Below are positions 109 through 27,276 of a DNA stretch of 64,000 nt, piece by piece. The notes below the pieces were generated by a model. That model had not been told where the DNA came from. It saw only the letters and a program-made list of their open reading frames with translations, and did not search any database. The stretch is from contig DATKWK010000017.1 of assembly GCA_035529595.1 (NCBI GenBank), positions 29,384-93,383 on the forward strand. The letters run 5' to 3'. Within the stretch, counting starts at the first letter, position 1; each line of letters opens with the position of its first letter. A program made the translations under genes and the position numbers. Source of the DNA: Candidatus Bathyarchaeia archaeon. Lineage in GTDB: Bacteria > Patescibacteriota > Microgenomatia > PFEM01 > JAFGMK01.

Positions 109-2505
109 TCATCTACCCGCCCTTTCTTGAATAATTTTTTCGAGTGTCTTAAAGTCTCCTTCATTAACAAGGTGAAATCTCACTTTTCCATCATAAGCTC
201 TTTCTAAAATTGAATCCTCCTTCGTTAAGCCCTGCTTTAATGCCTTTTTCTCTTTTGGTGTTACTTCTTTAAGCTCTGCAAAGACCCAATTTTGGGCAAA
301 ATAGTACCAAACGGCTGTTTTACCGTTAACCTTAATATAGTGGTCTGAGCCAGCTCCCCCTTTGACTACTGCTACTCTGCCATCAACAAAGGTCTCTTTA
401 GTCCAATTAGGTATGCCTCTAACCATCTTTTTTACGAAAGGACTCTTAACCCTCTCGATTATTTCTTTATCCGTTTCAGCGGTACTCTTTTTGACTCCTG
501 TTGCACTAATCATTTTTAGAATAGCTGCTAACCATTCTAAAGCTGCCTCACCTTCTTTTTTAATAAAGGGTGCAATCTCACCTCTACCATGCTTGACGGC
601 ATTGCGGTACTCTTTTAGACTCAGAAATCTTTTTTCCACTTCATATTTTGACCTGAAGATTGATTGAAAAGTGTCCCAGTTCAAAAGAATAATCTTGGAA
701 TAATCCATAATGTCGCAGAAATCTAGCCAATCACGGGGAGAAAGGTCAGTTATTACTTTGGGGGGGTTCTTTTTAAGGTGTTCGCCAACTCTATTTCTAA
801 CAACGCCAACAATATCGCTAGGGATTAATGTTTTCCAATAATTTACATCTTTAGCTATCAGCTTCACGCCAATCAAATCTCTTAGCTGGTTCTCGGTCTT
901 ATCAATTGCCCTGTTAACATCATCGACCACCACCTGACCAATTTTTGACCCTGTAGCAACCGTTATTTCCTCAAGCATTAAAGCGGCCCTGGAAGCCAAA
1001 AAAGAGGTGAAATCACCTTTTTTAATGGAATCGTCATAGCGAATCAAGTGAGTTTTAAGCGTGTCTTCAAAGTCTGGGTTTTCAGAAGCGTAGTCCTCGA
1101 AATATTTACTTGGCTTCTTGTTAGAAATTTCCTTGTTTAATTCGGCTGGTAAGAAGCAAAAATTAGGAAGTGAATGGACCATTACCATCGGGTAATGATT
1201 CTGAATAATGGATTTAGGAAAGATATGGTGTTTCTCTGAGCTGTTGAAATCGGAAAAATAGGCATCACGCAAGGGTAAAAGGGAGTTATTCTTGAAATGT
1301 CTGGGGTTCTTTTTGACAAGCAAACACAAAACACCATTCTTGACGGCTGATTTGCGAGTCATCCTAATTTTCATCAGGGATTCAATGTCTGGATTAAGAG
1401 GATATTTAATAGCTACCTCTTTTCTGTCAGCAATTTTATCCATCAATTTTCTATCCTCGGTCATTAAGGTTAAGGTTGAAGCGGCGTATCTTTCTGAAAA
1501 AGTGGTTTGCCAGAACCATTGTGACAGAAGCTCCACTTGTTTCTGGTCTAGGCTTCTTGCCTTGTTCTTATAAAACAAATAGGCAATCACAGCGATTAAA
1601 CTTCGGTAAGGAAGAAGAAGGGAGTTAACAACGCCAAAATTGCTACAAGCGTAATCTATTGCCAAGCCAAGCGACTCCAGGCAAGTTTTCCAGTAATTTT
1701 TAACATCTTCTACCCGAAGCTGAAGCTGAACAACCCGAGTACAAGAACCCTTAGCAATCAAGGAAAGAGCTTGGATATAAACTTCATTGTGGATTTCGCC
1801 AAACTCTTTGGTTTTGAGTTTCTCGTTTTCTTTTTTAACTGCGACTCTTAAATCAAACTCAGGTGTCCAAGTACTTGCTGAGATTAAATCAAAAAGGTTT
1901 AATTTCTGCCCACCTTGATTGATTCGTTCAAAAATATCACAAACTTCATCCAATTCTTTATCATGAACATCAATGGCAGAAAATGGATAGTTGTTAAATC
2001 GCTGGTAGCATTCATTGAACGCCTTCTTCCGCTCAACGGTTAACCCTTCGTAAACGTCAAACCTGTCATTAGAGAGCAAATCAGAAATAGAAACATATCT
2101 TTGATTATCAGGATTTCGGTCAACAAACACCTTTTCATCCAAATCAAAGCAAATCTTTTTATAATTCCGATTGTAAAGGGTCAATCCCTTGACAGTTACA
2201 TATAGAGAAGTGAGCCTCTGCTGTCCGTCTAAAATAAAAGTTATTTTTTCGTACTTATCAGGCTTGGGAAGATTAAGTTCGGCAATATCTCTGTAGAAGT
2301 CATAATATTTGCGAGGAGCGTCCCAAAAAAAGAAAGAGCCAATCGGATACTCAAGATAAATGCTTTCTAAAAGTTTCATCACTCTAGGCTTGTCCCAAAC
2401 GAACTCTCTTTGAAACTGGGGAATGCGAAGAACACCTTTTTCAATCTCACGAATAATATCCGCCAACTTATAATCACTTTTTATTTTTATCTTTTGTATT
2501 TCCAT
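109..2505 (-). CDS. GmrSD-like type IV restriction-type protein: DUF262 (ParB-like NTPase, DGQQR motif) plus DUF1524 (His-Me finger nuclease, HHIFPKS), with a C-terminal HEPN-like R-x4-H segment
   Basis: Translation carries the ILDGQQRLTSL hallmark of DUF262 in the N-terminal region. A mid-protein SEKHHIFPKSII matches the DUF1524 (D/E)HIxP motif. EYRNAVKHGRGE near residue ~620 matches the HEPN Rx4H signature. The ORF is 798 aa. Confidence 0.8.
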   Translation of the reverse strand: MEIQKIKIKSDYKLADIIREIEKGVLRIPQFQREFVWDKPRVMKLLESIYLEYPIGSFFFWDAPRKYYDFYRDIAELNLPKPDKYEKITFILDGQQRLTSLYVTVKGLTLYNRNYKKICFDLDEKVFVDRNPDNQRYVSISDLLSNDRFDVYEGLTVERKKAFNECYQRFNNYPFSAIDVHDKELDEVCDIFERINQGGQKLNLFDLISASTWTPEFDLRVAVKKENEKLKTKEFGEIHNEVYIQALSLIAKGSCTRVVQLQLRVEDVKNYWKTCLESLGLAIDYACSNFGVVNSLLLPYRSLIAVIAYLFYKNKARSLDQKQVELLSQWFWQTTFSERYAASTLTLMTEDRKLMDKIADRKEVAIKYPLNPDIESLMKIRMTRKSAVKNGVLCLLVKKNPRHFKNNSLLPLRDAYFSDFNSSEKHHIFPKSIIQNHYPMVMVHSLPNFCFLPAELNKEISNKKPSKYFEDYASENPDFEDTLKTHLIRYDDSIKKGDFTSFLASRAALMLEEITVATGSKIGQVVVDDVNRAIDKTENQLRDLIGVKLIAKDVNYWKTLIPSDIVGVVRNRVGEHLKKNPPKVITDLSPRDWLDFCDIMDYSKIILLNWDTFQSIFRSKYEVEKRFLSLKEYRNAVKHGRGEIAPFIKKEGEAALEWLAAILKMISATGVKKSTAETDKEIIERVKSPFVKKMVRGIPNWTKETFVDGRVAVVKGGAGSDHYIKVNGKTAVWYYFAQNWVFAELKEVTPKEKKALKQGLTKEDSILERAYDGKVRFHLVNEGDFKTLEKIIQERAGR

Positions 2506-2570
2506 TTTTATTCTCCAATCATAAACTTCTCGGGTACTCCAAATAAAGACCGATGGTTGATGGTGAAAGT

Positions 2571-5321
2571 TTAATCATTATCACTATTTCTCAATAAATA
2601 TCTTCTTTCTCTTTTAAGAAATGCTTCTTTTCCGCCCTCGAGGACATCACAAATGTGTTCTTTAATACCTTCTTCCTCAATCGCCCCACAGATGATGTTC
2701 TCAGTAACATCATCTTTATCATCATCTTTCAGAACAATCACCAATTCGGCATCGGCAAGAACTACAAGGTTTGGGTCACGAGTACAAATAATCATTTGTC
2801 TTGATTCTTTTTTATCCTTTATAGTAGGAATCAAGCGTTCAATTAAAAATTTCGTATCTATGTGGTCCTCTGGCTGGTCAATAATGAGAGGGCCTCTGCC
2901 TGAACTTAGGATTAACTCTAAAACTGTTCCGCACCTTTCACCAAAAGATAAAGACTCAAGGGGTTTATTTTTGTACTTAATTCTGTTAAGACCTTCAACA
3001 CAAAACTCTTGAAGTCTTAATGACATTTCATCCCTAAGACTGGCTGTTTCTTTTCTACAAAATATCCCATTAAAAAATTTCGACTGCTCGCCCTTGGGTA
3101 ATTTTTCATTCTTTAAACAATCCTTTAATGCCTTAAACAGTTTGTCTCGTGAAGAATACTTGGCAACCAATTGATTCTTAAAGTACTCCACTTGGAATTT
3201 CTCTAATCCTACAATTCTAACTTCTATCTGTTCCTTCCATGCATAATAAGCCTTCGAAAACTGCTCTATTACCCAATTAATCACTTTTTCCATGTCAATC
3301 TCGTAACTAGCACGAATTTCAGAAGAAGAAAACTTTTGATTAAAGGCGTCAACATTCTGCTGGTTAGATTTCTCCCATTTTTGAAAAAGTCTGTTCAACT
3401 TTTTACAACTTTCTTTGTGTTCACCCCTATTTCTTTTACATTGGGTAATTTGTCCCCCCACTTTTTGAAGACTAGAAATAAGTTTTGTCCGCCTTTTTTC
3501 TATCGACTTAACTTCAGCCTCTGAAATATCAATTCCTTGAGAAGCACAATATTGCCTGTAATTCTTTCCAGCTTTAACTAGGTCCTTAGACAATTTCTTG
3601 CACTCTTTAGAGTTAGTAATCTTTTTAAGAACCTGTATTATTTCTTCATCAGTCTTATCAAATCTATCAACTAAATCGGATAATAAATTTAACTTGCCTT
3701 TAAGGCTAGGAATTAATTCGGCAATGTCTTTAGTATCAACAACAAAATATTCTTTTAACTCACTCTTATAGACAGTTAACTTTCCAGACAACCAAGATAG
3801 GCTTTCTTTGAACGAATCAATTTTTTGCTTATTTTGCGAGAGTTCTCGAAAATTATTAAATAGTTTTATAAACTCTTTGGAGTTAAATTTTTTCAGTAAT
3901 AAATCAATCTCTTCTGCCTCCTTTTGAATATCATCTTTCTGTCTTGATAATTGGTAAATTCTCAGATAGTCCTGCCTTTTGTTCTTAATTTCTTTCCTTG
4001 TCTTTTCAATTTCCTCCCATAATTCTTTTAAATTAGCATCTTCAAATTTCTGATAAACTAATGATGAGACTTCATTTTTGTCTCTAGCAATTTTTTCTAC
4101 TTTCCCTTGCGACCAATAGTCAACAGAAATTGCCGTGGCCTTATTATTGGCTTCCTCAATGCCATCTACTTCCTCTTGCAAAGACTTTTTAATCTCATAA
4201 ACATCCTCTCCTGTCTTGACGCTCAATACCACGTTAATACCAGGACACTCTTGCTGAAGCGACTCAATAATCGAAGGCTCTTTGCCTCCAATAACCGTAG
4301 TGGTGTGTTTTCCGTAGACAAAAGAAATAAGTTCAACTAGGGTACTTTTTCCAACACCCCTGGGGCCAATGACTGCAGTTAAGTTAGGGTTAAAAGGAAC
4401 ATGCTCACTTAATTGGCTAAAACAGTATTTATTTTCGGCTTCACTATCCTGTTCGCTCAAAGAAAATTTTGAAATCCGAAAATGAACGTATTGAGGGCAA
4501 TTTTTTCCATACCAAACCCGTTTCTCTGGTTCATAAATAATCTGTTTTAAACCGCTAAAAGTAGGCCTCGCCTTAATCCAACAATATTTTCTTCCAATTT
4601 CGTCAAGAGAATGAGCGTCAGAAGTAACAACGCCCGCCTTTTGCCCGCCCGTTAGCCTTAATACGTCTTCGTGTTTTAAAGACTTTTCTTTTGTCTCAGC
4701 ACTGCTAATTTCGAAGAAATCAACTTCTTTATGAACATTGACCTTTAACTGAGAACCTTTGACTGAGTTTAATGAATCCAGTCCTTTGTGTTTATCATAA
4801 TGTAAATAAATTAAGCCCCCATTATTTTTAATAATTTTATACGCCTCTCGTAAATCAACATACGCATGTTCTAGCCCCTCTTTGAAATACTCGCCATCGG
4901 TCTTTCCTTCCTTTAGCCTCGACTTCCCAAGTTTTATTAGAGCACTTCTACTTATTCCTTCGCCTTTTTTCTCACAAAGAGGAAGTTGGTTTAAAACATT
5001 TTCCTTGATTTCACTGATGTCTATGTCTTCTGGAAACAAAGCCACTGCATGAATCGGAGAATCACCCTTATCTATTCGAAATTCAAATCCAGGCAATATA
5101 GTAATTTCCTCATCGACTGCAAGAATCCTAATTGCATCAACAAGCTCAACCGACCAATGGTCCGTAATAGCAGCTAATTGTATTTTTTCTTGTTTTATTT
5201 TCTCTACTATCTGCCTTGGGGTTATTGCTTTATTTTTATAGTCATAAGAGGCAGGAGTATGAATCTGTAAATCGCACTTTGTCCAAGTGGAACCAATCGT
5301 TCCAGGCTGAGAATCACTCAT
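2571..5321 (-). CDS. PHP-domain (polymerase/histidinol-phosphatase-like) plus ABC/SMC-like ATPase fusion protein; candidate single-gene antiphage system (PPL-like)
   Basis: N-terminus CDLQIHTPASYDY...ITDHWS resembles PHP metal-binding His motifs. Walker A is GPRGVGKST at about residue 320. A long coiled-coil middle is followed by an LSFGER signature-like segment and Walker B/D-loop LIIDQPEDHID near the C-terminus. 916 aa. Confidence 0.75.
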   Translation of the reverse strand: MSDSQPGTIGSTWTKCDLQIHTPASYDYKNKAITPRQIVEKIKQEKIQLAAITDHWSVELVDAIRILAVDEEITILPGFEFRIDKGDSPIHAVALFPEDIDISEIKENVLNQLPLCEKKGEGISRSALIKLGKSRLKEGKTDGEYFKEGLEHAYVDLREAYKIIKNNGGLIYLHYDKHKGLDSLNSVKGSQLKVNVHKEVDFFEISSAETKEKSLKHEDVLRLTGGQKAGVVTSDAHSLDEIGRKYCWIKARPTFSGLKQIIYEPEKRVWYGKNCPQYVHFRISKFSLSEQDSEAENKYCFSQLSEHVPFNPNLTAVIGPRGVGKSTLVELISFVYGKHTTTVIGGKEPSIIESLQQECPGINVVLSVKTGEDVYEIKKSLQEEVDGIEEANNKATAISVDYWSQGKVEKIARDKNEVSSLVYQKFEDANLKELWEEIEKTRKEIKNKRQDYLRIYQLSRQKDDIQKEAEEIDLLLKKFNSKEFIKLFNNFRELSQNKQKIDSFKESLSWLSGKLTVYKSELKEYFVVDTKDIAELIPSLKGKLNLLSDLVDRFDKTDEEIIQVLKKITNSKECKKLSKDLVKAGKNYRQYCASQGIDISEAEVKSIEKRRTKLISSLQKVGGQITQCKRNRGEHKESCKKLNRLFQKWEKSNQQNVDAFNQKFSSSEIRASYEIDMEKVINWVIEQFSKAYYAWKEQIEVRIVGLEKFQVEYFKNQLVAKYSSRDKLFKALKDCLKNEKLPKGEQSKFFNGIFCRKETASLRDEMSLRLQEFCVEGLNRIKYKNKPLESLSFGERCGTVLELILSSGRGPLIIDQPEDHIDTKFLIERLIPTIKDKKESRQMIICTRDPNLVVLADAELVIVLKDDDKDDVTENIICGAIEEEGIKEHICDVLEGGKEAFLKRERRYLLRNSDND

Positions 5322-6475
5322 GAAACTAATTCTCCTTTCATTGCCTTATTAAGCGTGCTTTCAAAAAGTTCATTTAGTAAAGTCTCTTTCATAAAAAGAC
5401 TACTAATGTAATCTAAAAGTTGTTCTGCTTTCACTATTATTTTTTTCTGTTTATCTAACAAAGGTAAGGTTATTTCAATCTCCTTTATCCTATTAGCGTT
5501 GAACTGGGGCTGCCCCGAACCAGTTACCAACTTCCTAGCCTGTTTCCAGTATTTTTCAGTTCTGGTAAACAACCAAATAAACAAGGGTATTGCTAAATCA
5601 GGATTAAATTTAACTCTTATCAGGAATGAAGCAAACACTGATGGTTTATCATAGTCGAATAATAAAAATTTTCCATAAGTTGCACCCGTACGAGCCACAA
5701 GCAAATCGTCATTGCTAAGAACATAGGATTTAGCTGTTCTCTCATTGACTTGCACAAATCTTTTATCATGGTTTCTTAGTTTCCCCGACTCATTAATATC
5801 GGTGATTCTTATTAATCTATAGTTACCTTTGTTCTTGCCTTCAGCTGTTAATCCATACTGAAATTCTGCAATATCACCAAACTTACTAAATTTTGCACTA
5901 TTATTTTGGACGAGCTGGCCAGTTATGAAAGAATCAAATAATTCTTCTGCCTTCTCAATTTCTTGCTGGTTTAGTTCTTGGAGTTTTCGAATCGCATCCA
6001 GTCGCTCAACAATTTTGTGTTGAATCTCGAGAGAAGGAAAAGAAATTTTAATCTTTTTTAGGGCCGTAGTGCTTAATTCTTTAAAAGTGGTTCCATAAGA
6101 TACCCTTTCTAGTCTTCTTTTATTCGCCAACAGCCAATAGGCAAGAAACCATGAGCCTAACTCCTTTTTGGGTGTAATTCCTTTTATGCCTTGGTTGTAG
6201 CCCGAAGCTGTTGAAGTAATCGCTACATTTCCAATTGTTGCTCTAGTCGATAAAAGAATACAATTCTTGTCGACTATTTTGGTATATTTTTTAGCTTCCT
6301 CGCTAATTTGTCTTTCACTGTCTTCTAAAACAGAAACTGTTCCTGAAGTTATTTCGGAAGGAGTAAACCATGGGACGTCGCCATTGAAATATTGAGGCTG
6401 ACTAGTTGGTGGAGTACCTCCGCCGTTGACCTCAACTAAATTGTCCAATTTTTTTGTTTGCCAATTATTTTTCAT
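5318..6475 (-). CDS. hsdS: Type I restriction-modification specificity subunit HsdS (two target-recognition domains)
   Basis: 385 aa with the N-terminal pattern KLDNLVEVNGGGTPPTSQPQYFNGDVPWFTPSEI typical of HsdS TRD1, and a second repeat-like half. It lies in an operon with hsdM/hsdR. The stop overlaps the next gene's start (5318..5321). Confidence 0.8.
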   Translation of the reverse strand: MKNNWQTKKLDNLVEVNGGGTPPTSQPQYFNGDVPWFTPSEITSGTVSVLEDSERQISEEAKKYTKIVDKNCILLSTRATIGNVAITSTASGYNQGIKGITPKKELGSWFLAYWLLANKRRLERVSYGTTFKELSTTALKKIKISFPSLEIQHKIVERLDAIRKLQELNQQEIEKAEELFDSFITGQLVQNNSAKFSKFGDIAEFQYGLTAEGKNKGNYRLIRITDINESGKLRNHDKRFVQVNERTAKSYVLSNDDLLVARTGATYGKFLLFDYDKPSVFASFLIRVKFNPDLAIPLFIWLFTRTEKYWKQARKLVTGSGQPQFNANRIKEIEITLPLLDKQKKIIVKAEQLLDYISSLFMKETLLNELFESTLNKAMKGELVS

Positions 6476-7176
6476 TTCAGTAATCTATATACCTCCGCTA
6501 ATAAAACATCTAAATCATTAGAGAAATCTATTTGGCTATGGCCTGGAAGTACCTCTTTTTTTCTTACTTGTGTATGCAAGAAACTGTCAGCAATCTTTCT
6601 AGAGGAATTTTCCAGGTGCTTCATTTGTTCCCTAAAGCTCTTTGTCCCTCGATAATTATTAGCAATTTCAGAAAAAGACCTAGTATTAAAGATTGGAGGA
6701 ATGTGGTCAAGAATAGACCGCACTACCATGGCCACAGAGTAATAACAATTATTCTCGTAGGCTGTATTCAGCTCCTCACAAAGTCTAATAAGCCTAATTA
6801 AGTCGAAAACATCACTTTTAACACTCTTTAACTCTTTTATCCTAGACTCACTCACATAGGATACGGTTCGTGTTTTGAGAACTTTTTTAGGTAGAACTAA
6901 AAAAGAGTGTAATTTCTTCTTTAAATCTCTCTTAACCGCTAAGGCATCAATTGACCGTCGAATAATATCAATTTTTTCTTCTTCGTTAAGCTCAGAATCT
7001 GCAACTGTCATCACCCAACTATAAGTCAATGCCGACCTTGCAGATGTTATTGCTTCGTTTGGATAATCTTTACACTTTAAATCAGTCAAAGAGTAAAAAA
7101 TACGATTTATCTCATTAATTGTGCTATCGTACTTTATGCCTTCACCAAATTGCGTAGCAAGAAATTTGTAATTCAT
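6472..7176 (-). CDS. Hypothetical helical protein with an R-x4-H (HEPN-like) motif, inserted inside the Type I R-M operon
   Basis: 234-aa ORF whose start overlaps the hsdS start region (6472..6475). It contains VVRSILDHIPP (R-x4-H). There is no TM segment and no other recognisable motif. Confidence 0.5.
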   Translation of the reverse strand: MNYKFLATQFGEGIKYDSTINEINRIFYSLTDLKCKDYPNEAITSARSALTYSWVMTVADSELNEEEKIDIIRRSIDALAVKRDLKKKLHSFLVLPKKVLKTRTVSYVSESRIKELKSVKSDVFDLIRLIRLCEELNTAYENNCYYSVAMVVRSILDHIPPIFNTRSFSEIANNYRGTKSFREQMKHLENSSRKIADSFLHTQVRKKEVLPGHSQIDFSNDLDVLLAEVYRLLK

Positions 7177-7185
7177 ATTAAGGCC

Positions 7186-7896
7186 TTATCTATCCTTTTT
7201 AATAAATTCAAGAAATTTTTCCCCAAATTCAGTCAAAGGTCCGAAAAATGTTCCACCATATCTACCATTTTTGACGGAAATTAAACCATAATTCCCCAGT
7301 CTTGCTAATTTGTCTTCTAAATCAATTTCATCTTCTCTTTTTTGGAGATAACCTGCCTCTTTAACATCTCTAATACTAATGCCCCTGCTTCCATCGACAT
7401 TAATCTTAGCTTCAGGATTCTCTTTTTTTTGTCTCTTAAGGGTGGCCCGAAGAATTCCGTCATATTTTTCATTAAGCCAAGCTAACCTATGTAGCTCATC
7501 AAAAGTAATCGAATTAATCGTCAGAATAATCTTGGAGTGATAATCAAAGGAGGGATAAATATCTTTATGAAGTTGGGAAATATAATTATAGTAGAGTCGT
7601 CTTTTTCTTCTGGATTCTTCCTGCAAAACATTCAGCAAAATTTTATGGAGAATGTCTTTAGCTTTATCGTCTCTTTGGATTAGCTCTAATAACTTTTTGG
7701 CTCCAACTTCATTTTTAACTTCCTTAATCCTGTCACCTCTCCATTTATCAACTAGAGACCAAATCCCTGATGCTGCTGCCGTACCAATGCCAACAAAGGG
7801 AGAAAATACAGAAATTACCGCCCCTGCAACAGGAAGACCTAATTCCTTAACAACATCCTTGGCTTTATCTTTTTTATTCTTGTTATTCTTGCTCAT
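7186..7896 (-). CDS. Hypothetical membrane protein with a Gly-zipper-like single TM segment near the N-terminus, inserted inside the Type I R-M operon
   Basis: 236 aa with a Lys-rich N-terminus followed by LGLPVAGAVISVFSPFVGIGTAAASGIWSLV (GxxxG-rich hydrophobic segment). Its stop overlaps the hsdM start (7893..7896). Confidence 0.5.
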   Translation of the reverse strand: MSKNNKNKKDKAKDVVKELGLPVAGAVISVFSPFVGIGTAAASGIWSLVDKWRGDRIKEVKNEVGAKKLLELIQRDDKAKDILHKILLNVLQEESRRKRRLYYNYISQLHKDIYPSFDYHSKIILTINSITFDELHRLAWLNEKYDGILRATLKRQKKENPEAKINVDGSRGISIRDVKEAGYLQKREDEIDLEDKLARLGNYGLISVKNGRYGGTFFGPLTEFGEKFLEFIKKDR

Positions 7897-9410
7897 CTGA
7901 TAAATCCCTTAACTTTCTTTAATTGTTGCTGAACCTTTTTATTAATTTCCTCAACCTCTTTGAATATCTCTTTTGGTTCTCGATATTCAGTCTCATCATC
8001 TTCAATGGGTTTGTAAGCTGAAGCTGAAAGAATGTAGTCATTTTCATCAATCTGTTTTCTGGTAGCGTACCAACTCCTGTCTGATTCGGGTTTGTCTTTC
8101 CATTTTTCAATTAAATCAGGCAAATCATTTTTATCTGGAGTTGGCCTCCTTTGAGTAGATAGTTGGAAACCGTCAAAACGCACTTCATAAAACCAAACTT
8201 TTTCCGTTTTCTTGCCGTCGTTATTGAAAAAAAGAACACTTGTTTTAACGCCTGAATAAGGCTGGAAAACACCGCCTGGCAAAGAAACTACAGCTACAAG
8301 GTTTCTTTTGTCCATTAGGTAACGCCTAATTTCTTTTGAAGCCCTATTTCTATTAAAAAGAATACCTTCGTTAACAATCACCCCAGCCCTACCACTTTTT
8401 CTTAAAGCATCAATCATTAAGCCTAAAAAGAGAGTGGTTGTATCGTTGGCCTGAACTGGGAGATATTTTCTGATTCTTTCTTTATTTACACTGCCTGCAA
8501 AAGGAGGATTAGTAACGACAACGTCAAATTCTCTGTCTTCCCATTCATCAGGACTGCCAGCAATAGAATCCCTTCTTAACACTTGCGATTTCTCAAGACC
8601 ATGCAAGATAAGATTCATAGTGGCGATTCTGACCATGGCCGCATCAACATCGAAACCATAAAAAGTACCAGTTTGTAAAAATTGCCATTGAGAAGGTGTT
8701 AACTTATCACCTGGTCCTTTTTTGACTTTTTGTCCACTGCCATTTCCTAGTTCTTCAATATTCTTCTTGTCAGAATTGTTTAGTTTTATCCATTCATAGA
8801 CTCCTAAAAGGAAGCCTGCAGTGCCACAGGCAGGGTCTAGCAATGTTTCACCAATCTGGGGGTTAACCAGCTGAACAACGGTTCTGATAATATGCCTTGG
8901 TGTTCTGAATTGGCCTGCTTTGCCTGAAGTAGCTATTTGGTTTAAAAGGTATTCATAAAGGTCACCCTTAACATCAGCATCTAGTTCAATAAAAGAAATC
9001 TCACGCAGCTTGTCAATCACATCTCTTAAAACAACTCCGTCTGGAATCTGAAATCGGGCTCCTGAAAAGAAACTTCTAACCGTTTCATCAGTGCCAGGCA
9101 AATTGGCCATAAAGGGGAAAACTTCATCTCGGACAAATTTATACATTTCGGTATTATCAGGAATATGAGTCCATTGGCTCCAACGGTACTTTTCATTCTC
9201 TTTATCAAAGATTGATTTATAGCCATTCTTACTGCCCATCAGCTTTGTTTCTTTCACTTTTTCGTTGTCCCATTCCTCAAGCATTTTTAGGAAAAAGAGA
9301 TACGATATTTGTTCAATGTAAGTAATGGGGTTTGTTAACCCTGCGGCCCAAAGTTTATTGCAAATTTGGTCGATGACAGATTTAAGTTCCTGTTTAGTTG
9401 TTCTACTCAT
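7893..9410 (-). CDS. hsdM: Type I restriction-modification N6-adenine DNA methyltransferase subunit HsdM
   Basis: 505 aa with the catalytic VVTNPPFAGS (NPPF) motif and the SAM-binding LLDPACGTAGFL motif. Its start/stop overlaps hsdR (9407..9410). Confidence 0.9.
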   Translation of the reverse strand: MSRTTKQELKSVIDQICNKLWAAGLTNPITYIEQISYLFFLKMLEEWDNEKVKETKLMGSKNGYKSIFDKENEKYRWSQWTHIPDNTEMYKFVRDEVFPFMANLPGTDETVRSFFSGARFQIPDGVVLRDVIDKLREISFIELDADVKGDLYEYLLNQIATSGKAGQFRTPRHIIRTVVQLVNPQIGETLLDPACGTAGFLLGVYEWIKLNNSDKKNIEELGNGSGQKVKKGPGDKLTPSQWQFLQTGTFYGFDVDAAMVRIATMNLILHGLEKSQVLRRDSIAGSPDEWEDREFDVVVTNPPFAGSVNKERIRKYLPVQANDTTTLFLGLMIDALRKSGRAGVIVNEGILFNRNRASKEIRRYLMDKRNLVAVVSLPGGVFQPYSGVKTSVLFFNNDGKKTEKVWFYEVRFDGFQLSTQRRPTPDKNDLPDLIEKWKDKPESDRSWYATRKQIDENDYILSASAYKPIEDDETEYREPKEIFKEVEEINKKVQQQLKKVKGFIR

Positions 9411-11629
9411 TGGAATACTCCTTGTTGCAAATCATCAACTACCTGCTTTAAGCCTTCATCTCCAAACACTTTTAAGGCGTACTGTAAACCGCCGTATTGA
9501 GAAATTGGTGGCCTATTGAAGTCAGCAATATCAGCCTTGCTCCCTGCAAGATATTGATTCTTCAGCATTCTTAAAACTCTGGCCTGCTCTGGAGCAAAAT
9601 TCTTTTGAATAATCCAAGCATCGAAGGCCTTGCTGACTCTTTCTTCTTTAGTTGGGAATTTGTGCATTCCAAGGGAAGATTTGATGAAATCTAATAAGTT
9701 GGCAGTTGGTTGGCCATAGGCATCTCTTAAATTGGCTTCATTGAAAAAGTATTCTGGGTGATTTAAAAGTTGGGCTAATTCTTGAAGTTCTTCATCTGTT
9801 ATCTCCTTGCCTTGTTTAACCTTGGCCACAATCTCATTTGAATCAACAAGAGTGCTCACTTCTTCAGCAAACTTATCTTTATACTCTCGAGCATCAACTT
9901 TTTCTCCTTCTGGCCCAAACTCAATAAATTTACGCTCCATCCATTCATCTGGAGCCTGTCCTTTGGGTACAGTTACAAACTCTCTTTTGGGCATCTTCAG
10001 TTCTTCTTCTTGTAGTAAATCTTCTTCCACTTTCTCCTCTTTTAGCTCCCTGGTAGCTGATTCCTTTTGTTCAAATGGGTCATAACCTTCATCGTTAAAA
10101 TATTTAGCATTACCAACGAAGTCATAAATCATAAAAGAAGTTTTACCGATTTCTGGGCAGAGTCGTGAACCCCTACCTCGCATTTGTTGGTAAAAAATTG
10201 GTGAGAGGGTTGGCCGACACATCATCAAATTTTCAATAGCTGGGTAGTCGAAACCTGTGTCTAACATGGCCACCGAAACCGCAATCACGGGCAAAGGTTC
10301 CTTTTTAAAACGTTTAATAGCTCTTTGTGGGTCGAAGGTGTCGGTGGTTATCATCTCAGCATACTTTCCCTTATATTCTGGATAAGCCTGGTTGAAGAAT
10401 CTGGTTAGTTGAGCGGCGTGTTTCTTGGTGACAGCAAATACAATTGTTTTCCTGGGATGGTCGCTTCCTTTCTTTTCTTCTTGCTCTTTGAATTCTTGGA
10501 CAAAGAGCATATTTCTGTCTTCAACTGTAATTACTCTTTCTAAATCTTGCGGCTGATAATCTTCGCCTTGCCATTTAATTCCTTCTAGAGAAATCTTCGA
10601 ACGGGCATGATAAACCTTGTAGCCAGCTAAATAGCCATCATTTATCGCTTGTCTAATGCCGTAAATAAAAGTGGGCTTACCTCGTCTGGTTGATGGGTTC
10701 CAACAGTCAAAAAATTTATAAGTGTTGCGGTCAATAAAATTGGCTGGAGTAGCGGTTAAACCAACATGAATAGCATCAAAATGAAGAAGAAGCGGACGAT
10801 ACATGCTGTAAATTGAACGATGACACTCATCAGTCACTACTAAATCAAAATAGCCACTAGTAAAAGAGTCAACTTGTGATTGAATCGTTGGTAAAGTACC
10901 AATCACTATCTGGCCTTCTTTGCTTCTTTTACCGCCGTATAAAACAATTGAGGGGTATTCAGAAAGATAATCATCAAAAGTTTCCTTGGCTTGGTTGGCA
11001 AGCTCGATTCGGTCGACTAGAAATAAAACTCGCTCAACAAGACCTGCCTGAAATAATCGCTTCATTTGCATGGCAATCACTAGCGTTTTCCCTGTCCCTG
11101 TAGCCATTTCTATTAACATCCGTCGTTTATTTTCTTCTATTCCTTTATCCATTGTTCTTAATGAATCTTTTTGGTAAGGCCTGACAGTGATTTCTTTGCC
11201 TCTAAAAAAGAATTTATCGGGAATGGGAATAGCGGAAAGCGGCTTGCGATATTTTCTTAAAGTGGAAATTCTTTCTAAATCATATCTGGAAAAAAAGGAG
11301 TCAACCAGACGAGCATCTGCCTGAGCGTAATCCCAAAAATAGGTGTCTTCGCCATTAGAAAGGAAAATAAAAGGAGCTTGAAGTTCCTTAGCATAATTCT
11401 CTGCCTGTTCTTTGGCAGAATACGGGTCCTTGTTGAATCTTTTTGTTTCTACGACCGCTAACGACCTTCCTCGAGCGTCCAAAAGAAGATAATCGGCCCT
11501 ACCGTCTTTAGTAGCTTCTTCGGTAGTAACCTGAGTTTTATCTTCAATATCCCAGCCTGCCTCTTTAAGCAAGCGGTCAACAATGATTCTGGAATCCGTC
11601 TCTTTCGAGGCAGATTTAGCATTAGCCAT
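9407..11629 (-). CDS. hsdR: Type I restriction enzyme R subunit HsdR (N-terminal PD-(D/E)xK nuclease plus SF2 helicase/translocase)
   Basis: The N-terminus ADYLLLDARGRSLAVVETKR is a PD-D/ExK-like segment. Helicase motif I is MATGTGKT and motif II is VVTDECHRS. 740 aa, which is on the short side for HsdR. Confidence 0.85.
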   Translation of the reverse strand: MANAKSASKETDSRIIVDRLLKEAGWDIEDKTQVTTEEATKDGRADYLLLDARGRSLAVVETKRFNKDPYSAKEQAENYAKELQAPFIFLSNGEDTYFWDYAQADARLVDSFFSRYDLERISTLRKYRKPLSAIPIPDKFFFRGKEITVRPYQKDSLRTMDKGIEENKRRMLIEMATGTGKTLVIAMQMKRLFQAGLVERVLFLVDRIELANQAKETFDDYLSEYPSIVLYGGKRSKEGQIVIGTLPTIQSQVDSFTSGYFDLVVTDECHRSIYSMYRPLLLHFDAIHVGLTATPANFIDRNTYKFFDCWNPSTRRGKPTFIYGIRQAINDGYLAGYKVYHARSKISLEGIKWQGEDYQPQDLERVITVEDRNMLFVQEFKEQEEKKGSDHPRKTIVFAVTKKHAAQLTRFFNQAYPEYKGKYAEMITTDTFDPQRAIKRFKKEPLPVIAVSVAMLDTGFDYPAIENLMMCRPTLSPIFYQQMRGRGSRLCPEIGKTSFMIYDFVGNAKYFNDEGYDPFEQKESATRELKEEKVEEDLLQEEELKMPKREFVTVPKGQAPDEWMERKFIEFGPEGEKVDAREYKDKFAEEVSTLVDSNEIVAKVKQGKEITDEELQELAQLLNHPEYFFNEANLRDAYGQPTANLLDFIKSSLGMHKFPTKEERVSKAFDAWIIQKNFAPEQARVLRMLKNQYLAGSKADIADFNRPPISQYGGLQYALKVFGDEGLKQVVDDLQQGVFQ

Positions 11630-11643: not shown

Positions 11644-11838
11644 TTATTTCTTTTGTCTTTCAATATAACTCTCGATGTCTTCGGGCCTGTATCTTCTATC
11701 ACCGACGCCACGCCTGGAGCCAATTCTGACAGCCTTTAAACGGTCTTCGTTATCCAATCGCCTTAGAGTTGCGGGACTAACATTTAAAATGTCAGCTGCT
11801 TGTTTTAAGGTCAACAATTTTCTAATTTTTTTGGTCAT
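11644..11838 (-). CDS. Small HTH DNA-binding protein (excisionase/AlpA-like family); possible regulator or recombination directionality factor
   Basis: 64 aa with LTLKQAADILNVSPATLRRL, typical of excisionase-family HTH. It sits 14 nt upstream of hsdR. Confidence 0.6.
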   Translation of the reverse strand: MTKKIRKLLTLKQAADILNVSPATLRRLDNEDRLKAVRIGSRRGVGDRRYRPEDIESYIERQKK

Positions 11839-14649: not shown

Positions 14650-14983
14650 GGCAAAATTACTATTGCACTTGAGGCTAAAATGTGTTATAAAACATTTAAT
14701 AAGACCTTCGGGTCGACAGAAATAAAAAGAAACAGAAATAAGAGGATAAAGCCATTCGGCGAGGCCTCTTTTTTTATTGGGAGAAAACTAATGAAAGACA
14801 TTGAAGCAAAGCTAAACCAGGCAGCCACCTTATTAGCAGAAGTGATGCTAAGCCAGTTGGGCTTTAATTTCATTCCAAAAGTTAGGATTGAACTTAGTTA
14901 TATTTTCCAGATAAAAATAATCTTGACTGGAAGCCCTTATGAAATTCCGTTTAATTACTACGAGAAACTTAGTTTTACCAGAA

Positions 14984-14989
14984 AGGAGG
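14984..14989 (+). promoter_or_regulatory. Shine-Dalgarno site (AGGAGG) for the serine recombinase gene
   Basis: A perfect AGGAGG sits 6 nt upstream of the ATG at 14996. This supports 14996 as the true start rather than the upstream ATG at 14939. Confidence 0.6.
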
Positions 14990-14995
14990 GATTTA

Positions 14996-16531: not shown

Positions 16532-16577
16532 CCCTTCGCTTAACAGGCGAATGCTCTGCCAATTGAGCTACCGGGGA
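16502..16577 (-). tRNA. tRNA-Asn (anticodon GTT)
   Basis: Cloverleaf read by hand: acceptor TCCCCGG/CCGGGGA, D-stem GCTC/GAGC, anticodon stem TTCGC/GCGAA with loop CTGTTAA, and T-arm ACTGG-TTCGAGT-CCAGT. CCA is encoded. The 3' end overlaps the recombinase ORF. Confidence 0.8.
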
Positions 16578-17103: not shown

Positions 17104-18261
17104 TTATTCCAAATAGTCTTGCAGCTTCTTTCTCCTCGAGGGGTGCTTCAACTTCCGCAGGGCTTTAGCCTCAATCTGCCGGATCCGTTCACGAGTCACG
17201 CCAAACTCCCGACCAACCTCCTCTAAAGTCATCGGCCGGGAACCATTGAGGCCAAAACGCATCTTTAAAACCTTTGCCTCACGATCCGATAAAGTCTTTA
17301 AAACCTCGTTAACGTTTTCTTTTAAAAGTTGTTTTGAGGCCGAATCATAGGGAGACGGCTGAGAAGTATCCTGAATAAAATCTCCCAAGAGCGAGTCCTG
17401 GTCATCCCCAACCGGCTTTTCCAGCGAAGTCGTATTTTGGGCGATTTTAAAGATTTCCCTGACCCGGTCAGGATCCAATTCCAGTTCATCGCCGATTTCC
17501 TCAGGGCTCGGTTCCCGTCCCAGCTGTTGCATTAATTTCCGGGAAATCCGAATTACTTTATTAATTGTTTCCACCATGTGGACCGGAATCCGAATAGTTC
17601 TTGCCTGATCGGCTATTGCCCGCGTGATTGCCTGCCGGATCCACCAGGTAGCATAGGTAGAAAATTTATAACCTCGCCGCCAGTCGTATTTTTCCACCGC
17701 CCGCATCAACCCTTGATTCCCTTCTTGGATCAGATCCAAGAAGCCCATTCCCCTACCGACGTATTTTTTGGCAATCGAGACCACTAAACGTAAATTTGAT
17801 TGAACCAGTTTCTTTCGAGCCGCATCGGAACCTTTCTCGATCCGCTGGGCTAATTTCACTTCTTCTACGGCGGTCAAAAGAGAAATCCGGCCAATTTCCT
17901 TAAGATACATTCTTACCGGATCAGTGATTGTCTTGTCCTTCAAAGTCGCCAAAACCTCAAGCTCTTTCGTTAAGGCCGAAGCCGCCTTTTCGTCCTCAAC
18001 CATTTCCTCCTTTGTCACCGTTTCAAAAACATCCACTTCGGCTTTCAAAAGATGATCGTAGAGATTGTCAAGTTCCTCGATCCGATCTTCGGCATCGGGA
18101 AAAAGAACCAAAATTTCATCCTGGGTCACAAAACCCTGCTTTTTCCCCTTCTTTATAAGGGCGGTTACATTAACTTTCTTTTTGCGGCTGACTTTTGTTG
18201 GCATAATTGGATAATAAATCAGATAATAATCTTCTCCTACTCTTATTTTATCAAATCTCAC
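17104..18261 (-). CDS. rpoD: RNA polymerase sigma-70 factor RpoD
   Basis: Region 2 [18 protein letters not shown] and region 4 [26 protein letters not shown] are present. It lies in a dnaG-rpoD operon arrangement. Confidence 0.9.
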
Positions 18262-27186: not shown

Positions 27187-27276
27187 TTGGCGGTGGGTGT
27201 GGGATTCGAACCCACGATAGCCTTTCAGCCATACACGCTCTCCAAGCGTGCGCACTAGTCCACTATGCGAACCCAC
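27187..27276 (-). tRNA. tRNA-Ser (anticodon GGA), long variable arm
   Basis: Acceptor GGTGGGT/ACCCACC; anticodon stem CACGC/GCGTG with loop TTGGAGA; T-arm ...GGTTCGAATCC...; CCA encoded. 90 nt. Confidence 0.8.

What the first reader, a model, noticed from the sequence alone, without database searches (positions are those of the whole stretch)
2571..5321. Single-gene PHP-domain plus ABC/SMC-type ATPase: candidate PPL-like antiphage system
An N-terminal PHP phosphoesterase-like domain (DLQIHTPAS, ITDHWS) is fused to an ATPase with Walker A GPRGVGKST, a long coiled-coil insert and a Walker B/D-loop LIIDQPEDHID at the far C-terminus (RecF/SbcC/OLD-like ABC ATPase). A PHP plus ATPase architecture has been reported as a single-gene defense system (PPL). 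Here it sits directly upstream of the GmrSD-like gene with a 65-bp gap, so the two might also function together.
Basis: partly seen in the sequence, partly recalled or inferred. Interest (0 to 1): 0.7.

Follow-up and report, generated by a model that had tools for sequence, protein, structure and literature searches.

The report
Ppl-related nuclease-ATPase inside restriction operon
This is an intact gene for a two-part enzyme (a PHP-type nuclease fused to an SMC/Rad50-like ATPase) of the already catalogued TrlF family, a distant cousin of the proven anti-phage protein Ppl, carried inside a mobile restriction-modification operon; it is a credible defence gene but not a new kind of system.

Summary
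ORF 2571-5321 (minus strand, 916 aa) encodes an N-terminal PHP phosphoesterase fold and a C-terminal SMC/Rad50-type ABC ATPase split by a ~350-aa helical insert. It passes NCBI's curated cutoff for the TrlF family (444.5 bits; cutoff 350) but fails the Ppl cutoff (202; cutoff 1000). A genuine Ppl passes both, so Ppl is a branch within the broad TrlF family and this gene is a different deep branch. It is not a free-standing single-gene system here. Its ATG overlaps the hsdS stop (ATGA), and it is the sixth gene of an operon hsdR-hsdM-two unknowns-hsdS-TrlF-GmrSD-like on an island with a serine recombinase at tRNA-Asn. A Candidatus Amesbacteria genome carries the same cassette. There a Cas4-like gene lies between TrlF and GmrSD; the window's 65-bp gap is the deletion scar of that gene. 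Across 79 diverse loci, recurrent partners are TrlG-like genes (10) and Type I R-M (8), never GmrSD. Likely function: a nucleotide-gated DNA-end exonuclease adding a defence layer. Caveats: the first PHP histidine is Gln and the H-loop His is Arg. Verdict: new member of a known kind, modest interest.

The parts
2571..5321 (-). TrlF-family gene (916 aa): PHP phosphoesterase fused to an SMC/Rad50-like ABC ATPase
   Evidence: ORF. NCBIfam NF045780 444.5 bits (cutoff 350), aligned over aa 10-908. AF2 model and Foldseek matches.
4512..5294 (-). PHP domain (aa 10-270). Ligand positions: D17, Q19 (family His), H21, D54-H55, E80, H91, H174, D235-H237
   Evidence: Alignment A1 motif columns. Foldseek hits 3o0f, 7ug9, 9etk, 2yb1 and Pol III alpha PHP. 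Q19 codon CAG lies at 5265-5267.
4062..4424 (-). ABC ATPase N-lobe (aa 300-420): Walker A G319-S326 (K325) and Q-loop Q405
   Evidence: Sequence hit of the P-loop region to Smc4 and Smc.
3012..4061 (-). Helical/coiled-coil insert with a small distal domain (aa 421-770); most divergent part (37% identity to the ortholog)
   Evidence: DSSP of the AF2 model. Per-domain identity.
2574..3011 (-). ABC ATPase C-lobe (aa 771-916): signature LSFGER (S792), Walker B D815-Q816-P817-E818, D-loop D822, H-loop position R848 (family His)
   Evidence: It is 74% identical to the ortholog.
5332..5337 (-). Shine-Dalgarno AAGGAG, 10 nt upstream of the TrlF ATG and inside the 3' end of hsdS; the ATG overlaps the hsdS TGA (ATGA)
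   Evidence: Sequence read.
2504..2578 (-). Remnant of a deleted Cas4-like PD-(D/E)xK gene: MIKLSPSTIGLYLEYPRSL*, i.e. the first ~19 codons followed by a stop. This fills the '65-bp gap'.
   Evidence: tblastn of the Amesbacteria 222-aa protein gives 65% identity over 26 aa, E 9e-5. That protein hits Cas4 models and PDDEXK_1.
109..2505 (-). GmrSD-like Type IV restriction gene (798 aa). DUF262 motifs QFQR30, DGQQR93, FERIN192; His-Me-like KHHIFP425...N457; extra HEPN-like RNAVKH634.
   Evidence: Pfam GmrSD_N E 2.3e-31. PADLOC PDC-M55C, HEC-05 and PDC-M34B. Motifs. 71% identical to the Amesbacteria ortholog.
5318..6475 (-). hsdS (Type I specificity subunit, two target-recognition domains)
   Evidence: Pfam Methylase_S E 1e-50, 2 stretches.
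6472..7896 (-). Two ORFs of unknown function (234 aa at 6472-7176; 236 aa at 7186-7896) in the slot between hsdM and hsdS
   Evidence: No hit in Pfam, PADLOC, NCBIfam or PHROGs. No similarity to the two ORFs at the same position in Amesbacteria.
7893..9410 (-). hsdM (Type I methyltransferase)
   Evidence: Pfam N6_Mtase E 3e-59 and HsdM_N. 81% identical to the Amesbacteria ortholog.
9407..11629 (-). hsdR (Type I restriction subunit, EcoAI/EcoEI-like)
   Evidence: Pfam ResIII, EcoEI_R_C and HSDR_N. NCBIfam EcoAI family E 2e-91. 82% identical to the ortholog.
11644..11838 (-). 64-aa HTH_17/excisionase-like gene heading the operon
   Evidence: PHROG 66 E 4.6e-9. 62% identical to the HTH_17 gene upstream of hsdR in Amesbacteria.
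14939..16531 (+). Large serine recombinase; its 3' end overlaps tRNA-Asn (16502-16577, minus strand). This marks the island boundary.
   Evidence: Pfam Resolvase, Recombinase and Zn_ribbon_recom. tRNA. GC rises from 0.35-0.39 to 0.42-0.45 beyond it. rpoD and dnaG follow.

Best explanation
The gene encodes a TrlF-family protein, a single-chain analogue of a nuclease-plus-SMC-like-ATPase machine and a deep-branching relative of the anti-phage protein Ppl. It is an accessory defence gene co-transcribed and translationally coupled with a complete Type I R-M system and a GmrSD-like Type IV enzyme on an integrative island.

Proposed mechanism, inferred from the architecture and from what is reported for Ppl:
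1. The ABC heads bind ATP/NTP and dimerise through Walker A and the signature motif.
2. Because the usual catalytic Glu is naturally Gln (DQPE), nucleotide acts mainly as a gate and not as fuel.
3. When nucleotide pools fall, or free DNA ends appear during infection, the PHP domain degrades DNA from its ends.
4. In this operon the DNA ends produced by HsdR or GmrSD cleavage would be natural substrates, so the island offers layered protection: unmodified DNA by Type I, hypermodified DNA by GmrSD, and end degradation by TrlF.

Shown here: family membership, fold, motif state, operon structure, mobility and recurrent R-M linkage. Inferred: the defence role, the substrate, nucleotide gating and any cooperation with R-M.
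For: Family and fold. NF045780 TrlF 444.5 bits (cutoff 350), full length. PHP fold and SMC/Rad50 head fold in a confident model. Walker A, Q-loop, signature and D-loop are intact, as are 7 of the 8 family-conserved PHP ligand positions. Domain cores are conserved against the 53% ortholog: PHP 61%, N-lobe 57%, C-lobe 74%, insert 37%, which suggests selection on both enzymatic modules.

Relation to a validated defence protein. Homologous to Ppl. A genuine Ppl also passes the TrlF model (466 bits) and shares DQPED. ppl impairs T7 plaquing and is countered by Bas63 gp130 (PMC11482910). Ppl is described as an NTP-inhibited ssDNA 3'-5' PHP exonuclease triggered by nucleotide depletion and 3'-OH ends (review PMC12904381).

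Context in the window. ATGA overlap with hsdS plus an AAGGAG Shine-Dalgarno; ATGA junctions through most of the operon. Island with serine recombinase at tRNA-Asn and low GC. The same cassette occurs in Amesbacteria.

Context across the family. Type I hsdM+hsdS in 8 of 79 loci, with 7 on the same strand within 2 genes. TrlG-like partner in 10 of 79. Pfam confirms ResIII, HSDR_N, EcoEI_R_C, N6_Mtase, Methylase_S and AlbA_2/HATPase_c_4 among operonic neighbours. Nearer relatives sit beside a Type II R-M, N6_Mtase, PDDEXK_3 or DUF4365, plus serine recombinases. Plasmid copies sit beside Abi, PLD and S-4TM genes.
Against: No experiment exists on this protein or on any non-Ppl TrlF. In Photorhabdus the TRL phenotype mapped to trlG, not trlF (10.1101/2020.06.02.129163).

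The first His of the PHP D-x-H-x-H motif is Gln here (His in 53 of 54 relatives), which may weaken one metal site. The H-loop His is Arg (His in 67 of 69).

The Cas4-like gene that accompanies the ortholog has been deleted here, so this copy could be partly disabled.

The Ppl mechanism is taken from one sentence of a review. The primary study was not found in the library, and Ppl is only ~24% identical.

The enrichment near R-M genes lacks a measured genomic background.
Confidence: 0.6

Rival explanations
1. R-M guardian (PrrC/PARIS logic). TrlF is held latent by contact with the Type I HsdM/HsdS complex and is released as a nuclease when a phage anti-restriction protein inactivates the R-M enzyme, causing abortive infection.
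For: The gene is translationally coupled to hsdS. TrlF genes are inserted at varying positions inside Type I operons in unrelated phyla (L017, L048, L071, L076, L036). PrrC, an ABC-ATPase-like NTPase fused to a nuclease, is embedded in a Type IC locus, is activated by EcoPrrI inhibition and is nucleotide-modulated (PMC12707154). The natural Walker-B Gln fits a sensor-type ATPase.
Against: About 85-90% of sampled family members have no Type I genes nearby, and plasmid copies are stand-alone. Ppl works as a single gene. No interaction data exist. Type I loci are known insertion hotspots for unrelated defence genes (PMC11411939), so embedding need not mean regulation.
Confidence: 0.15
2. Decaying passenger. 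This copy is a functionally compromised remnant of a TrlF + Cas4-like module and contributes little; the active defences of the island are the Type I R-M and GmrSD.
For: Rare substitutions at two catalytic positions: H19Q (PHP) and H848R (H-loop). The adjacent Cas4-like gene is deleted, leaving a 19-codon stub with a stop. TrlF is the least conserved enzymatic gene of the cassette: 53% identity against 71-82% for GmrSD, HsdM and HsdR.
Against: The 916-codon frame is intact with a good Shine-Dalgarno. Low overall identity is concentrated in the coiled-coil insert (37%), while catalytic lobes are 57-74% identical. The H-loop Arg is shared by the whole near clade, including the Amesbacteria copy that keeps His19 and Cas4, so it is a clade trait and not decay. 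Q19 is also found in P0003 (42% identity), which suggests it is tolerated.
Confidence: 0.15
3. TRL-type stress or growth-arrest module, as in Photorhabdus trlF-trlG-trlR, acting on host physiology and not on phage.
For: The family takes its name from the Temperature Restriction Locus (10.1101/2020.06.02.129163). TrlG-like AlbA_2/HATPase_c_4 genes are the commonest operonic partner across the family.
Against: No TrlG-like gene exists anywhere in the window or in the Amesbacteria cassette. The TRL phenotype mapped to trlG only. The TRL operon may itself be a defence system misfiring at high temperature (inference).
Confidence: 0.05
4. Housekeeping DNA-repair ATPase-nuclease (SbcCD/Rad50-Mre11, RecN or RecF-like).
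For: The ATPase head resembles Rad50, RecN, RecF and Smc structurally, and the nuclease + coiled-coil ATPase logic parallels SbcCD.
Against: It lies on a low-GC integrative island with a serine recombinase and inside an R-M operon. Distribution is patchy, including many conjugative plasmids. There is no Mre11/SbcD-type partner and no CxxC zinc hook. All curated SMC and Rad50 models score far below cutoff.
Confidence: 0.03

Closest known systems
TrlF family AAA-like ATPase (NCBIfam NF045780; founding member P. laumondii TrlF of the Temperature Restriction Locus)
   Same: Passes the curated cutoff over its full length. Same PHP + ABC-ATPase + helical-insert architecture. Same DQPE Walker B.
   Different: Only ~24-25% identical to enterobacterial TrlFs. 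It has no TrlG or TrlR partners. Its PHP motifs II and VI (ITDH, SDAH) are more canonical than in the Y. ruckeri and E. coli plasmid TrlFs, which read TNYF. It is embedded in a Type I R-M operon.
Ppl (Gao 2020 single-gene anti-phage system; NCBIfam NF042955, PADLOC PDLC02208)
   Same: Homologous over the whole length. Same domain order. Shared GSxW-K-x-D-x-H-x-H, SDAH, Walker A, Q-loop and DQPED motifs. Probably the same kind of nucleotide-gated DNA-end exonuclease.
   Different: 202 bits against a cutoff of 1000. 168 bits against 1631 for a true Ppl on the PADLOC model. 23.8% identity. Operonic and not stand-alone. H19Q and H-loop Arg.
SbcCD / Mre11-Rad50
   Same: A metal-dependent phosphoesterase nuclease combined with an SMC-like ABC ATPase whose lobes are split by a coiled coil. 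Structural hits to Rad50 heads. DNA-end-directed action is plausible.
   Different: The nuclease is a PHP fold, not calcineurin-like. The two parts are fused in one chain. The insert is short (~350 aa) and has no zinc hook. The gene is mobile, not housekeeping.
PrrC / RloC anticodon nucleases embedded in Type I R-M loci
   Same: An ABC-type NTPase fused to a nuclease and encoded inside a Type I hsd operon. Nucleotide-modulated activation (PMC12707154).
   Different: Different nuclease domain and domain order. tRNA is not implied as a target. No sequence-level membership.
TgvAB / RloF / BrxU (GmrSD-type enzymes embedded in R-M or BREX loci)
   Same: These explain the neighbouring gene: DUF262/DUF1524 enzymes inside Type I loci complement restriction of modified phages (PMC11411939).
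   Different: They concern the neighbour, not the TrlF gene. The neighbour here carries an extra HEPN-like C-terminal region.
SMC-like defence ATPases (Lamassu LmuB, Wadjet JetC, MADS mad3, Gabija GajA, PARIS AriA)
   Same: Weak ABC-head similarity: LmuB 6.5e-7, mad3 1.2e-14, AriA 1e-5. Structural hits to JetC and LmuB.
   Different: No partner genes of those systems are present. MADS requires MAD6-8 (10.1101/2023.03.30.534895), which are absent.

Membership tests
TrlF family (NCBIfam NF045780) | Whole-protein score at or above the curated cutoff (350 bits) with end-to-end alignment | tested here: met
   444.5 bits, aa 10-908 on profile positions 2-943 of 944. The near relatives P0002, P0003, P0004 and P0015 score 408-469.
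TrlF family (NCBIfam NF045780) | N-terminal PHP fold plus C-terminal ABC/SMC-type ATPase with a helical insert | tested here: met
   AF2 model pLDDT 84.4. Foldseek PHP hits at E 1e-8 to 1e-6 and SMC/Rad50 heads at E 4e-8 to 1e-4.
TrlF family (TRL operon sense) | Operon partners TrlG (AlbA_2 + HATPase_c_4) and TrlR | tested here: not met
   No TrlG-like ORF in the 64-kb window. Only 10 of 79 family loci have one, so this feature is not required by the NCBIfam definition.
Ppl (NCBIfam NF042955 equivalog) | Whole-protein score at or above 1000 bits | tested here: not met
   202.1 bits. A curated Pantoea Ppl scores 1335.8.
Ppl (PADLOC PDLC02208) | Strong full-length match to the Ppl HMM | tested here: inconclusive
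   E 4.9e-50 and 168.5 bits in two stretches, best aa 172-908. True Ppl scores 1631 bits in one stretch. PADLOC's own thresholds were not available; the tool might still label it ppl.
Ppl | Functions as a stand-alone single gene | tested here: not met
   The start codon overlaps the hsdS stop and the gene is sixth in a seven-gene operon. The curated Ppl in Pantoea is an isolated gene.
Ppl / TrlF | Complete PHP metal-ligand set (H-x-H, D-H, E, H, H, D-x-H) | tested here: inconclusive
   7 of 8 family-conserved positions are kept. The first His is Gln19. The effect on catalysis is unknown.
Ppl / TrlF | Anti-phage activity; NTP-inhibited 3'-5' exonuclease activity | not testable with these tools
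   Needs phage challenge and biochemistry. The literature basis is PMC11482910 and PMC12904381, for Ppl only.
Spaf_1101 family AAA-like ATPase (NF045781) | Score at or above 475 bits | tested here: not met
   153.5 bits, C-terminal half only.
SbcCD / Rad50-Mre11 | Separate calcineurin-like nuclease partner; long coiled coil with a CxxC zinc hook; curated Rad50/SMC model score | tested here: not met
   No such neighbour. No CxxC in the protein. SMC models score 17-26 bits against cutoffs of 567-729.
MADS (methylation-associated defence system) | Mandatory MAD6, MAD7 and MAD8 | tested here: not met
   Only generic hits: mad3 52.7 bits and mad8 19.6 bits on the same ATPase, and mad2/mad5 on hsdM/hsdS. 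NCBIfam MADS2 and MADS5 score far below cutoff. The requirement is taken from 10.1101/2023.03.30.534895.
PrrC/RloC R-M-embedded anticodon nucleases | C-terminal anticodon-nuclease domain; activation by R-M inhibition | tested here: not met
   No such domain in any profile search. The nuclease here is an N-terminal PHP domain. The activation logic is not testable in silico.

The most novel reading that the evidence does not exclude
TrlF-family proteins are restriction-coupled end-processing or guardian modules. They have inserted repeatedly and independently into Type I (and other) R-M operons in Patescibacteria, Bacteroidota, Verrucomicrobiota and Gammaproteobacteria. This could mean they are triggered by the DNA ends that restriction creates, or by failure of restriction. 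On that reading, a PHP 3'-5' exonuclease with a Rad50-like ATP gate, originally paired here with a Cas4-like nuclease, serves as the degradative arm or back-up of restriction and is not an independent Ppl-like sensor.
Probability: 0.2. Interest if true: 0.6.

Novelty: new member of a known kind. Interest (0 to 1): 0.3.

Why it matters
The finding places a divergent, candidate-phyla-type member in the large Ppl/TrlF superfamily (821 clusters at E<=1e-30). Only the Ppl branch of that superfamily has been tested. The analysis also shows three things about the family. NCBI's TrlF model subsumes Ppl. The superfamily naturally carries Gln at the Walker-B catalytic position, which argues for nucleotide sensing over turnover. 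Family members recur next to R-M systems and TrlG-like genes. These points give concrete hypotheses for how this widespread but poorly characterised family works and for how layered defence operons are assembled and eroded (the Cas4-like deletion scar). For this particular locus the practical result is a corrected annotation, not a new system.

Tried and rejected
1. Ppl membership: rejected on curated cutoffs.
2. GmrSD as a family-wide partner: rejected. 0 of 79 loci with an iterated GmrSD profile, and GmrSD_N is not among the listed Pfam families of operonic neighbours.
3. MADS, Lamassu, Gabija, PARIS and Septu membership: only generic P-loop or ABC-head hits and no partner genes.
4. Sequence search of PDB for a solved Ppl or TrlF: only Smc P-loop hits. 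Foldseek found no full-length match either.
5. Finding the primary Ppl mechanism paper: three literature searches failed, so the mechanism rests on a review sentence.
6. Promoter and terminator scan of the operon: counts at or below shuffle expectation, so uninformative.
7. First metagenome scan with the single protein: chose low-information peptides and found nothing. The second scan, with a near-clade alignment, returned only the same Amesbacteria genome plus three distant loci.
8. My ad-hoc HsdR/HsdM HMM labels over-called L095 as Type I. Pfam showed a helicase plus an Eco57I/TaqI_C-type methylase instead, so the Type I count uses only loci with both HsdM and HsdS.
9. Active-site geometry check on the model: not possible because the model file is not exposed to the sandbox.
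10. dN/dS: not attempted, because at 53% protein identity synonymous sites are saturated.
11. PHROGs: no phage family matches TrlF or the two unknown ORFs.


Full report
OBSERVATION. All quoted motifs are present. Pfam alone is weak: PHP 21.4 bits (gathering score 26.4), SMC_N 36.8 (40), AAA_23 27.7 (27). Curated full-length models are decisive: NCBIfam NF045780 'TrlF family AAA-like ATPase' scores 444.5 bits (cutoff 350) over aa 10-908.

An AlphaFold2 model built on a 30-sequence alignment is confident (mean pLDDT 84.4, pTM 0.72). Foldseek against the PDB splits it into two parts. The first is an N-terminal PHP fold: 3o0f/3e0f TrpH-like phosphoesterase at E 1e-8, RNase AM 7ug9/9etk, Cv1693 2yb1 and Pol III alpha PHP domains. 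The second is an SMC/Rad50-type ABC head: MukB, JetC, Smc, cohesin/condensin, Rad50, RecN, RecF and Lamassu LmuB. The lobes of the head are separated by a ~350-residue helical insert (aa ~421-770).

MOTIF AUDIT. In an alignment of 30 family members (A1) the PHP ligand positions are D17, H19, H21, D54-H55, E80, H91, H174 and D235-H237.
- The query keeps all of these except the first His, which is Gln (codon CAG). His occupies this position in 53 of 54 further sequences. Gln is shared with P0003 (42% identity) but not with the closest ortholog.
- Walker A (K325), Q-loop (Q405), signature LSFGER (S792) and D-loop (D822) are intact.
- Walker B reads D815-Q816-P817-E818. Gln in the usual catalytic-Glu position is the family norm (72 of 76) and is also present in a curated Ppl.
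- The H-loop His is Arg848 in the query, P0002, P0003 and P0024. It is His in 67 of 69 others.

WHAT FAMILY. The name TrlF comes from the Temperature Restriction Locus of Photorhabdus laumondii (trlF-trlG-trlR). There, mutations relieving growth arrest at 36 C mapped to trlG (AlbA_2 + HATPase_c_4), none mapped to trlF, and the function of TrlF remains unknown (10.1101/2020.06.02.129163).

The query is homologous to Ppl but fails its curated cutoff: 202 bits against 1000. For calibration I retrieved a PGAP-annotated Ppl from a Pantoea plasmid and a TrlF from Y. ruckeri pYR3. The true Ppl scores 1336 on the Ppl model and also 466 on the TrlF model. NF045780 is therefore a broad model with Ppl nested in it. 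On the PADLOC Ppl model the true Ppl scores 1631 bits, the query 168, the Amesbacteria ortholog 136 and Y. ruckeri TrlF 98. By BLASTP the query is about equally far from Ppl (23.8%, 148 bits) and from enterobacterial TrlFs (24-25%, 161-163 bits).

The family is large. There are 821 clusters at 50% identity with E<=1e-30 in 1.84 billion representatives, at least 575 stretches in species-representative genomes, and 1143 plasmid records, of which 119 are near full length and almost all are annotated TrlF. The query's near clade is tiny: one 53% ortholog and one 42-44% relative, then ~31-33%.

CONTEXT IN THE WINDOW. All genes below lie on the minus strand:
- HTH_17/excisionase-like gene, 11644-11838
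- hsdR, 9407-11629
- hsdM, 7893-9410
- unknown 236-aa ORF, 7186-7896
- unknown 234-aa ORF, 6472-7176
- hsdS, 5318-6475
- TrlF, 2571-5321
- GmrSD-like gene, 109-2505
The junctions hsdR/hsdM, hsdM/unk236, unk234/hsdS and hsdS/TrlF are all ATGA overlaps. TrlF has an AAGGAG Shine-Dalgarno 10 nt upstream of its ATG, inside hsdS.

A large serine recombinase (14939-16531, plus strand) abuts tRNA-Asn (16502-16577). rpoD and dnaG follow, and GC rises from 0.35-0.39 to 0.42-0.45. The cassette therefore rides on an integrative island whose left end lies outside the window.

The contig is bacterial: it carries a tmRNA (141 bits in Rfam), rpoD and a bacterial-type dnaG. The identical protein is nevertheless deposited as 'Candidatus Bathyarchaeia archaeon'.

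THE ORTHOLOGOUS CASSETTE. Candidatus Amesbacteria GW2011_GWA1_44_24 carries HTH_17 - hsdR(740) - hsdM(505) - 235 aa - 200 aa - hsdS(390) - TrlF(910) - PDDEXK_1(222) - GmrSD_N(801) - 142 aa, beside a large serine recombinase.

Identities to the window are HsdR 82%, HsdM 81%, GmrSD 71%, HTH 62%, TrlF 53% and HsdS 29%. The two ORFs between hsdM and hsdS show no similarity, so that position is a variable slot. TrlF divergence is concentrated in the insert (37%). The PHP domain (61%), N-lobe (57%) and C-lobe (74%) are better conserved.

The 222-aa gene is Cas4-like (PADLOC Cas4 E 5.7e-10). Its first 26 residues match window 2578-2504 at 65% identity (E 9e-5), as MIKLSPSTIGLYLEYPRSL followed by a stop. 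The '65-bp gap' is therefore the scar of a ~600-bp deletion that removed this gene.

CO-OCCURRENCE ACROSS THE FAMILY. I used 80 loci from species-representative genomes across Bacteria and Archaea, crude gene calls and iterated profiles. Among 79 loci:
- A TrlG-like gene is present in 10 and adjacent in 9.
- hsdM + hsdS are present in 8, and in 7 they are on the same strand within two genes.
- A GmrSD-like gene is present in none.

Pfam scans of 61 downstream and 60 upstream operonic neighbours agree: SLFN_AlbA_2 7, HATPase_c_4 6, ResIII 5, HSDR_N 3, EcoEI_R_C 2+1, Methylase_S 2+3, N6_Mtase 2+1 and N6_N4_Mtase 1+2.

TrlF sits at different positions inside Type I operons in unrelated lineages:
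- L071 (Bacteroidales): hsdR-TrlF-hsdS-x-x-hsdM
- L048: hsdR-x-TrlF-hsdS-x-hsdM
- L076 (Competibacter): TrlF-hsdR-hsdM-x-hsdS
- L017 (Verrucomicrobiia)
- L036 (Patescibacteria): hsdR-hsdM-TrlF

Nearer relatives follow the same pattern. P0003 lies after an N6_Mtase and before a PDDEXK_3 gene. P0004 is beside DUF4365 and a serine recombinase. P0015 lies directly after a Tsp45I-type Type II R-M on an integrative element. The metagenome scan added L094 (TrlF followed by hsdS) and L095 (helicase + Eco57I/TaqI_C methylase - TrlF - AlbA_2 fragment). My own HMM had mislabelled L095 as Type I. Plasmid TrlFs and the Ppl are stand-alone genes beside Abi, PLD, S-4TM or recombinase genes.

From general knowledge that Type I systems occupy a few genes per genome, 7 of 79 within two genes is roughly a tens-fold enrichment. 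This background is my estimate and was not measured.

HOW IT MOST LIKELY WORKS. What is shown: a fused PHP phosphoesterase and an ATP-binding, dimerisation-competent ABC head (Walker A, signature and D-loop intact), in a mobile multi-layer restriction operon. The rest is inferred.
- ppl gives anti-phage protection experimentally (T7, Bas63 lacking gp130; PMC11482910).
- A 2026 review describes E. coli Ppl as an ssDNA 3'-5' exonuclease. NTPs bound to both its PHP and NTPase domains inhibit it. Nucleotide depletion and 3'-OH ends made by phage homing endonucleases release it (PMC12904381).
- The superfamily-wide Walker-B Gln fits an ATPase that senses nucleotide more than it turns it over.
- The overall logic, a phosphoesterase nuclease plus a coiled-coil ABC ATPase, parallels SbcCD/Mre11-Rad50 and suggests DNA-end recognition.

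In this operon, ends made by HsdR or by the GmrSD-like enzyme would be available substrates. The ancestral Cas4-like partner may have supplied the complementary polarity. Whether the H19Q, H848R and Cas4-less copy in this window is fully active cannot be decided in silico.

RIVALS. Four were considered:
1. A PrrC/PARIS-like R-M guardian. Translational coupling to hsdS and repeated embedding favour it. Most family members lack R-M neighbours, which argues against it.
2. A decaying passenger. The rare substitutions and the deletion scar favour it. The intact frame, the conserved catalytic lobes and the clade-wide H-loop Arg argue against it.
3. A TRL-type growth-arrest module. No TrlG is present here.
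4. Housekeeping repair. The island context, the plasmid distribution and the failed SMC/Rad50 models argue against it.

COMPARISON AND NOVELTY. The gene is a member of a curated family and a homolog of a validated defence protein. Standard pipelines would name it TrlF family, and PADLOC might call it ppl. GmrSD homologs inside Type I loci are already described (TgvAB, RloF; PMC11411939), as are ABC-NTPase-nuclease genes inside Type I loci (PrrC; PMC12707154).

Three points are modestly new: the documented recurrence of TrlF genes within R-M operons, the nesting of Ppl within the TrlF model, and the Cas4-like deletion scar. I rate the finding a new member of a known kind, with interest 0.3. The most novel reading not excluded is that TrlF proteins are restriction-coupled end-processing or guardian modules (probability ~0.2).

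Noticed in passing
window 2504-2578 (-): The 65-bp 'intergenic gap' between TrlF and the GmrSD-like gene is the stub of a deleted Cas4-like PD-(D/E)xK gene: its first ~19 codons followed by a stop. The gene is intact (222 aa) at the same position in the Amesbacteria cassette (L001:12730-13398).
   Followed up: yes
window 6472-7896 (-): Two ORFs (234 and 236 aa) lie between hsdM and hsdS, with ATGA coupling on both outer junctions. They have no hit in Pfam, PADLOC, NCBIfam or PHROGs. The Amesbacteria cassette has two unrelated ORFs (235 and 200 aa) in the same slot, so this is a variable cargo position inside a Type I operon and may hold uncharacterised defence or anti-anti-restriction genes.
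   Followed up: partly
window 109-2505 (-): The GmrSD-like protein has intact DUF262 motifs (QFQR30, DGQQR93, FERIN192) and a His-Me-like KHHIFP425...N457 that Pfam DUF1524 does not detect. It also has an extra C-terminal region with a HEPN-like Rx4H motif (RNAVKH634) that hits PADLOC PDC-M34B (E 2e-10). This may be a GmrSD-HEPN fusion. It is 71% identical to the Amesbacteria copy.
   Followed up: partly
window 14939-16577: The 3' end of the large serine recombinase gene overlaps tRNA-Asn (16502-16577, opposite strand). GC rises beyond this point and rpoD/dnaG follow. This is the right-hand boundary of an integrative island of at least 16.5 kb; its left end lies outside the window.
   Followed up: partly
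window 32385-32774 (-), with 17104-20044: A tmRNA gene (Rfam 141 bits), rpoD and a bacterial-type dnaG show the contig is bacterial. The identical TrlF protein is deposited in NCBI under 'Candidatus Bathyarchaeia archaeon' (VMW41_00530), so the MAG is probably mis-binned or mislabelled. The nearest cassette relative is in Patescibacteria (Amesbacteria).
   Followed up: partly
window 27188-31611 (-): Cluster of six tRNA genes (Ser-GGA, Arg-CCG, Ser-CGA, Arg-GCG, Ser-TGA, Ser-GCT) just upstream of the tmRNA gene.
   Followed up: no
Family-wide (alignment A1; loci L005-L084; L088): The whole Ppl/TrlF superfamily carries Gln at the Walker-B position normally held by the catalytic Glu (DQPE in 72 of 76, and also in curated Ppl). 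This is a natural equivalent of the E-to-Q trapping mutation used experimentally in ABC ATPases.
   Followed up: partly
L089:7995-10697 and L090:7995-10676: The enterobacterial plasmid TrlFs, close to the founding TRL-type TrlF, have a degenerate PHP motif II (TNYF in place of TDH) and lack the 'HAG' histidine. The PHP domain of the name-giving subgroup may therefore be catalytically impaired, while this window's copy is more canonical.
   Followed up: no
L059, L077, L083 (also L049, L067, L078): Some relatives match only from about residue 230-310 onward, so they look like PHP-less ATPases. In three of them the same two downstream genes (~375 and ~345 aa) are conserved, which suggests a distinct three-gene system built on the same ATPase.
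   Followed up: no
L095:1-9372: A metagenome contig with Helicase_C protein - 1259-aa Eco57I/N6_Mtase/TaqI_C methylase - TrlF - AlbA_2 (TrlG-like) fragment - Fic-like_C. TrlF and a TrlG-like gene can therefore both sit behind a non-Type-I R-M-like module.
   Followed up: partly
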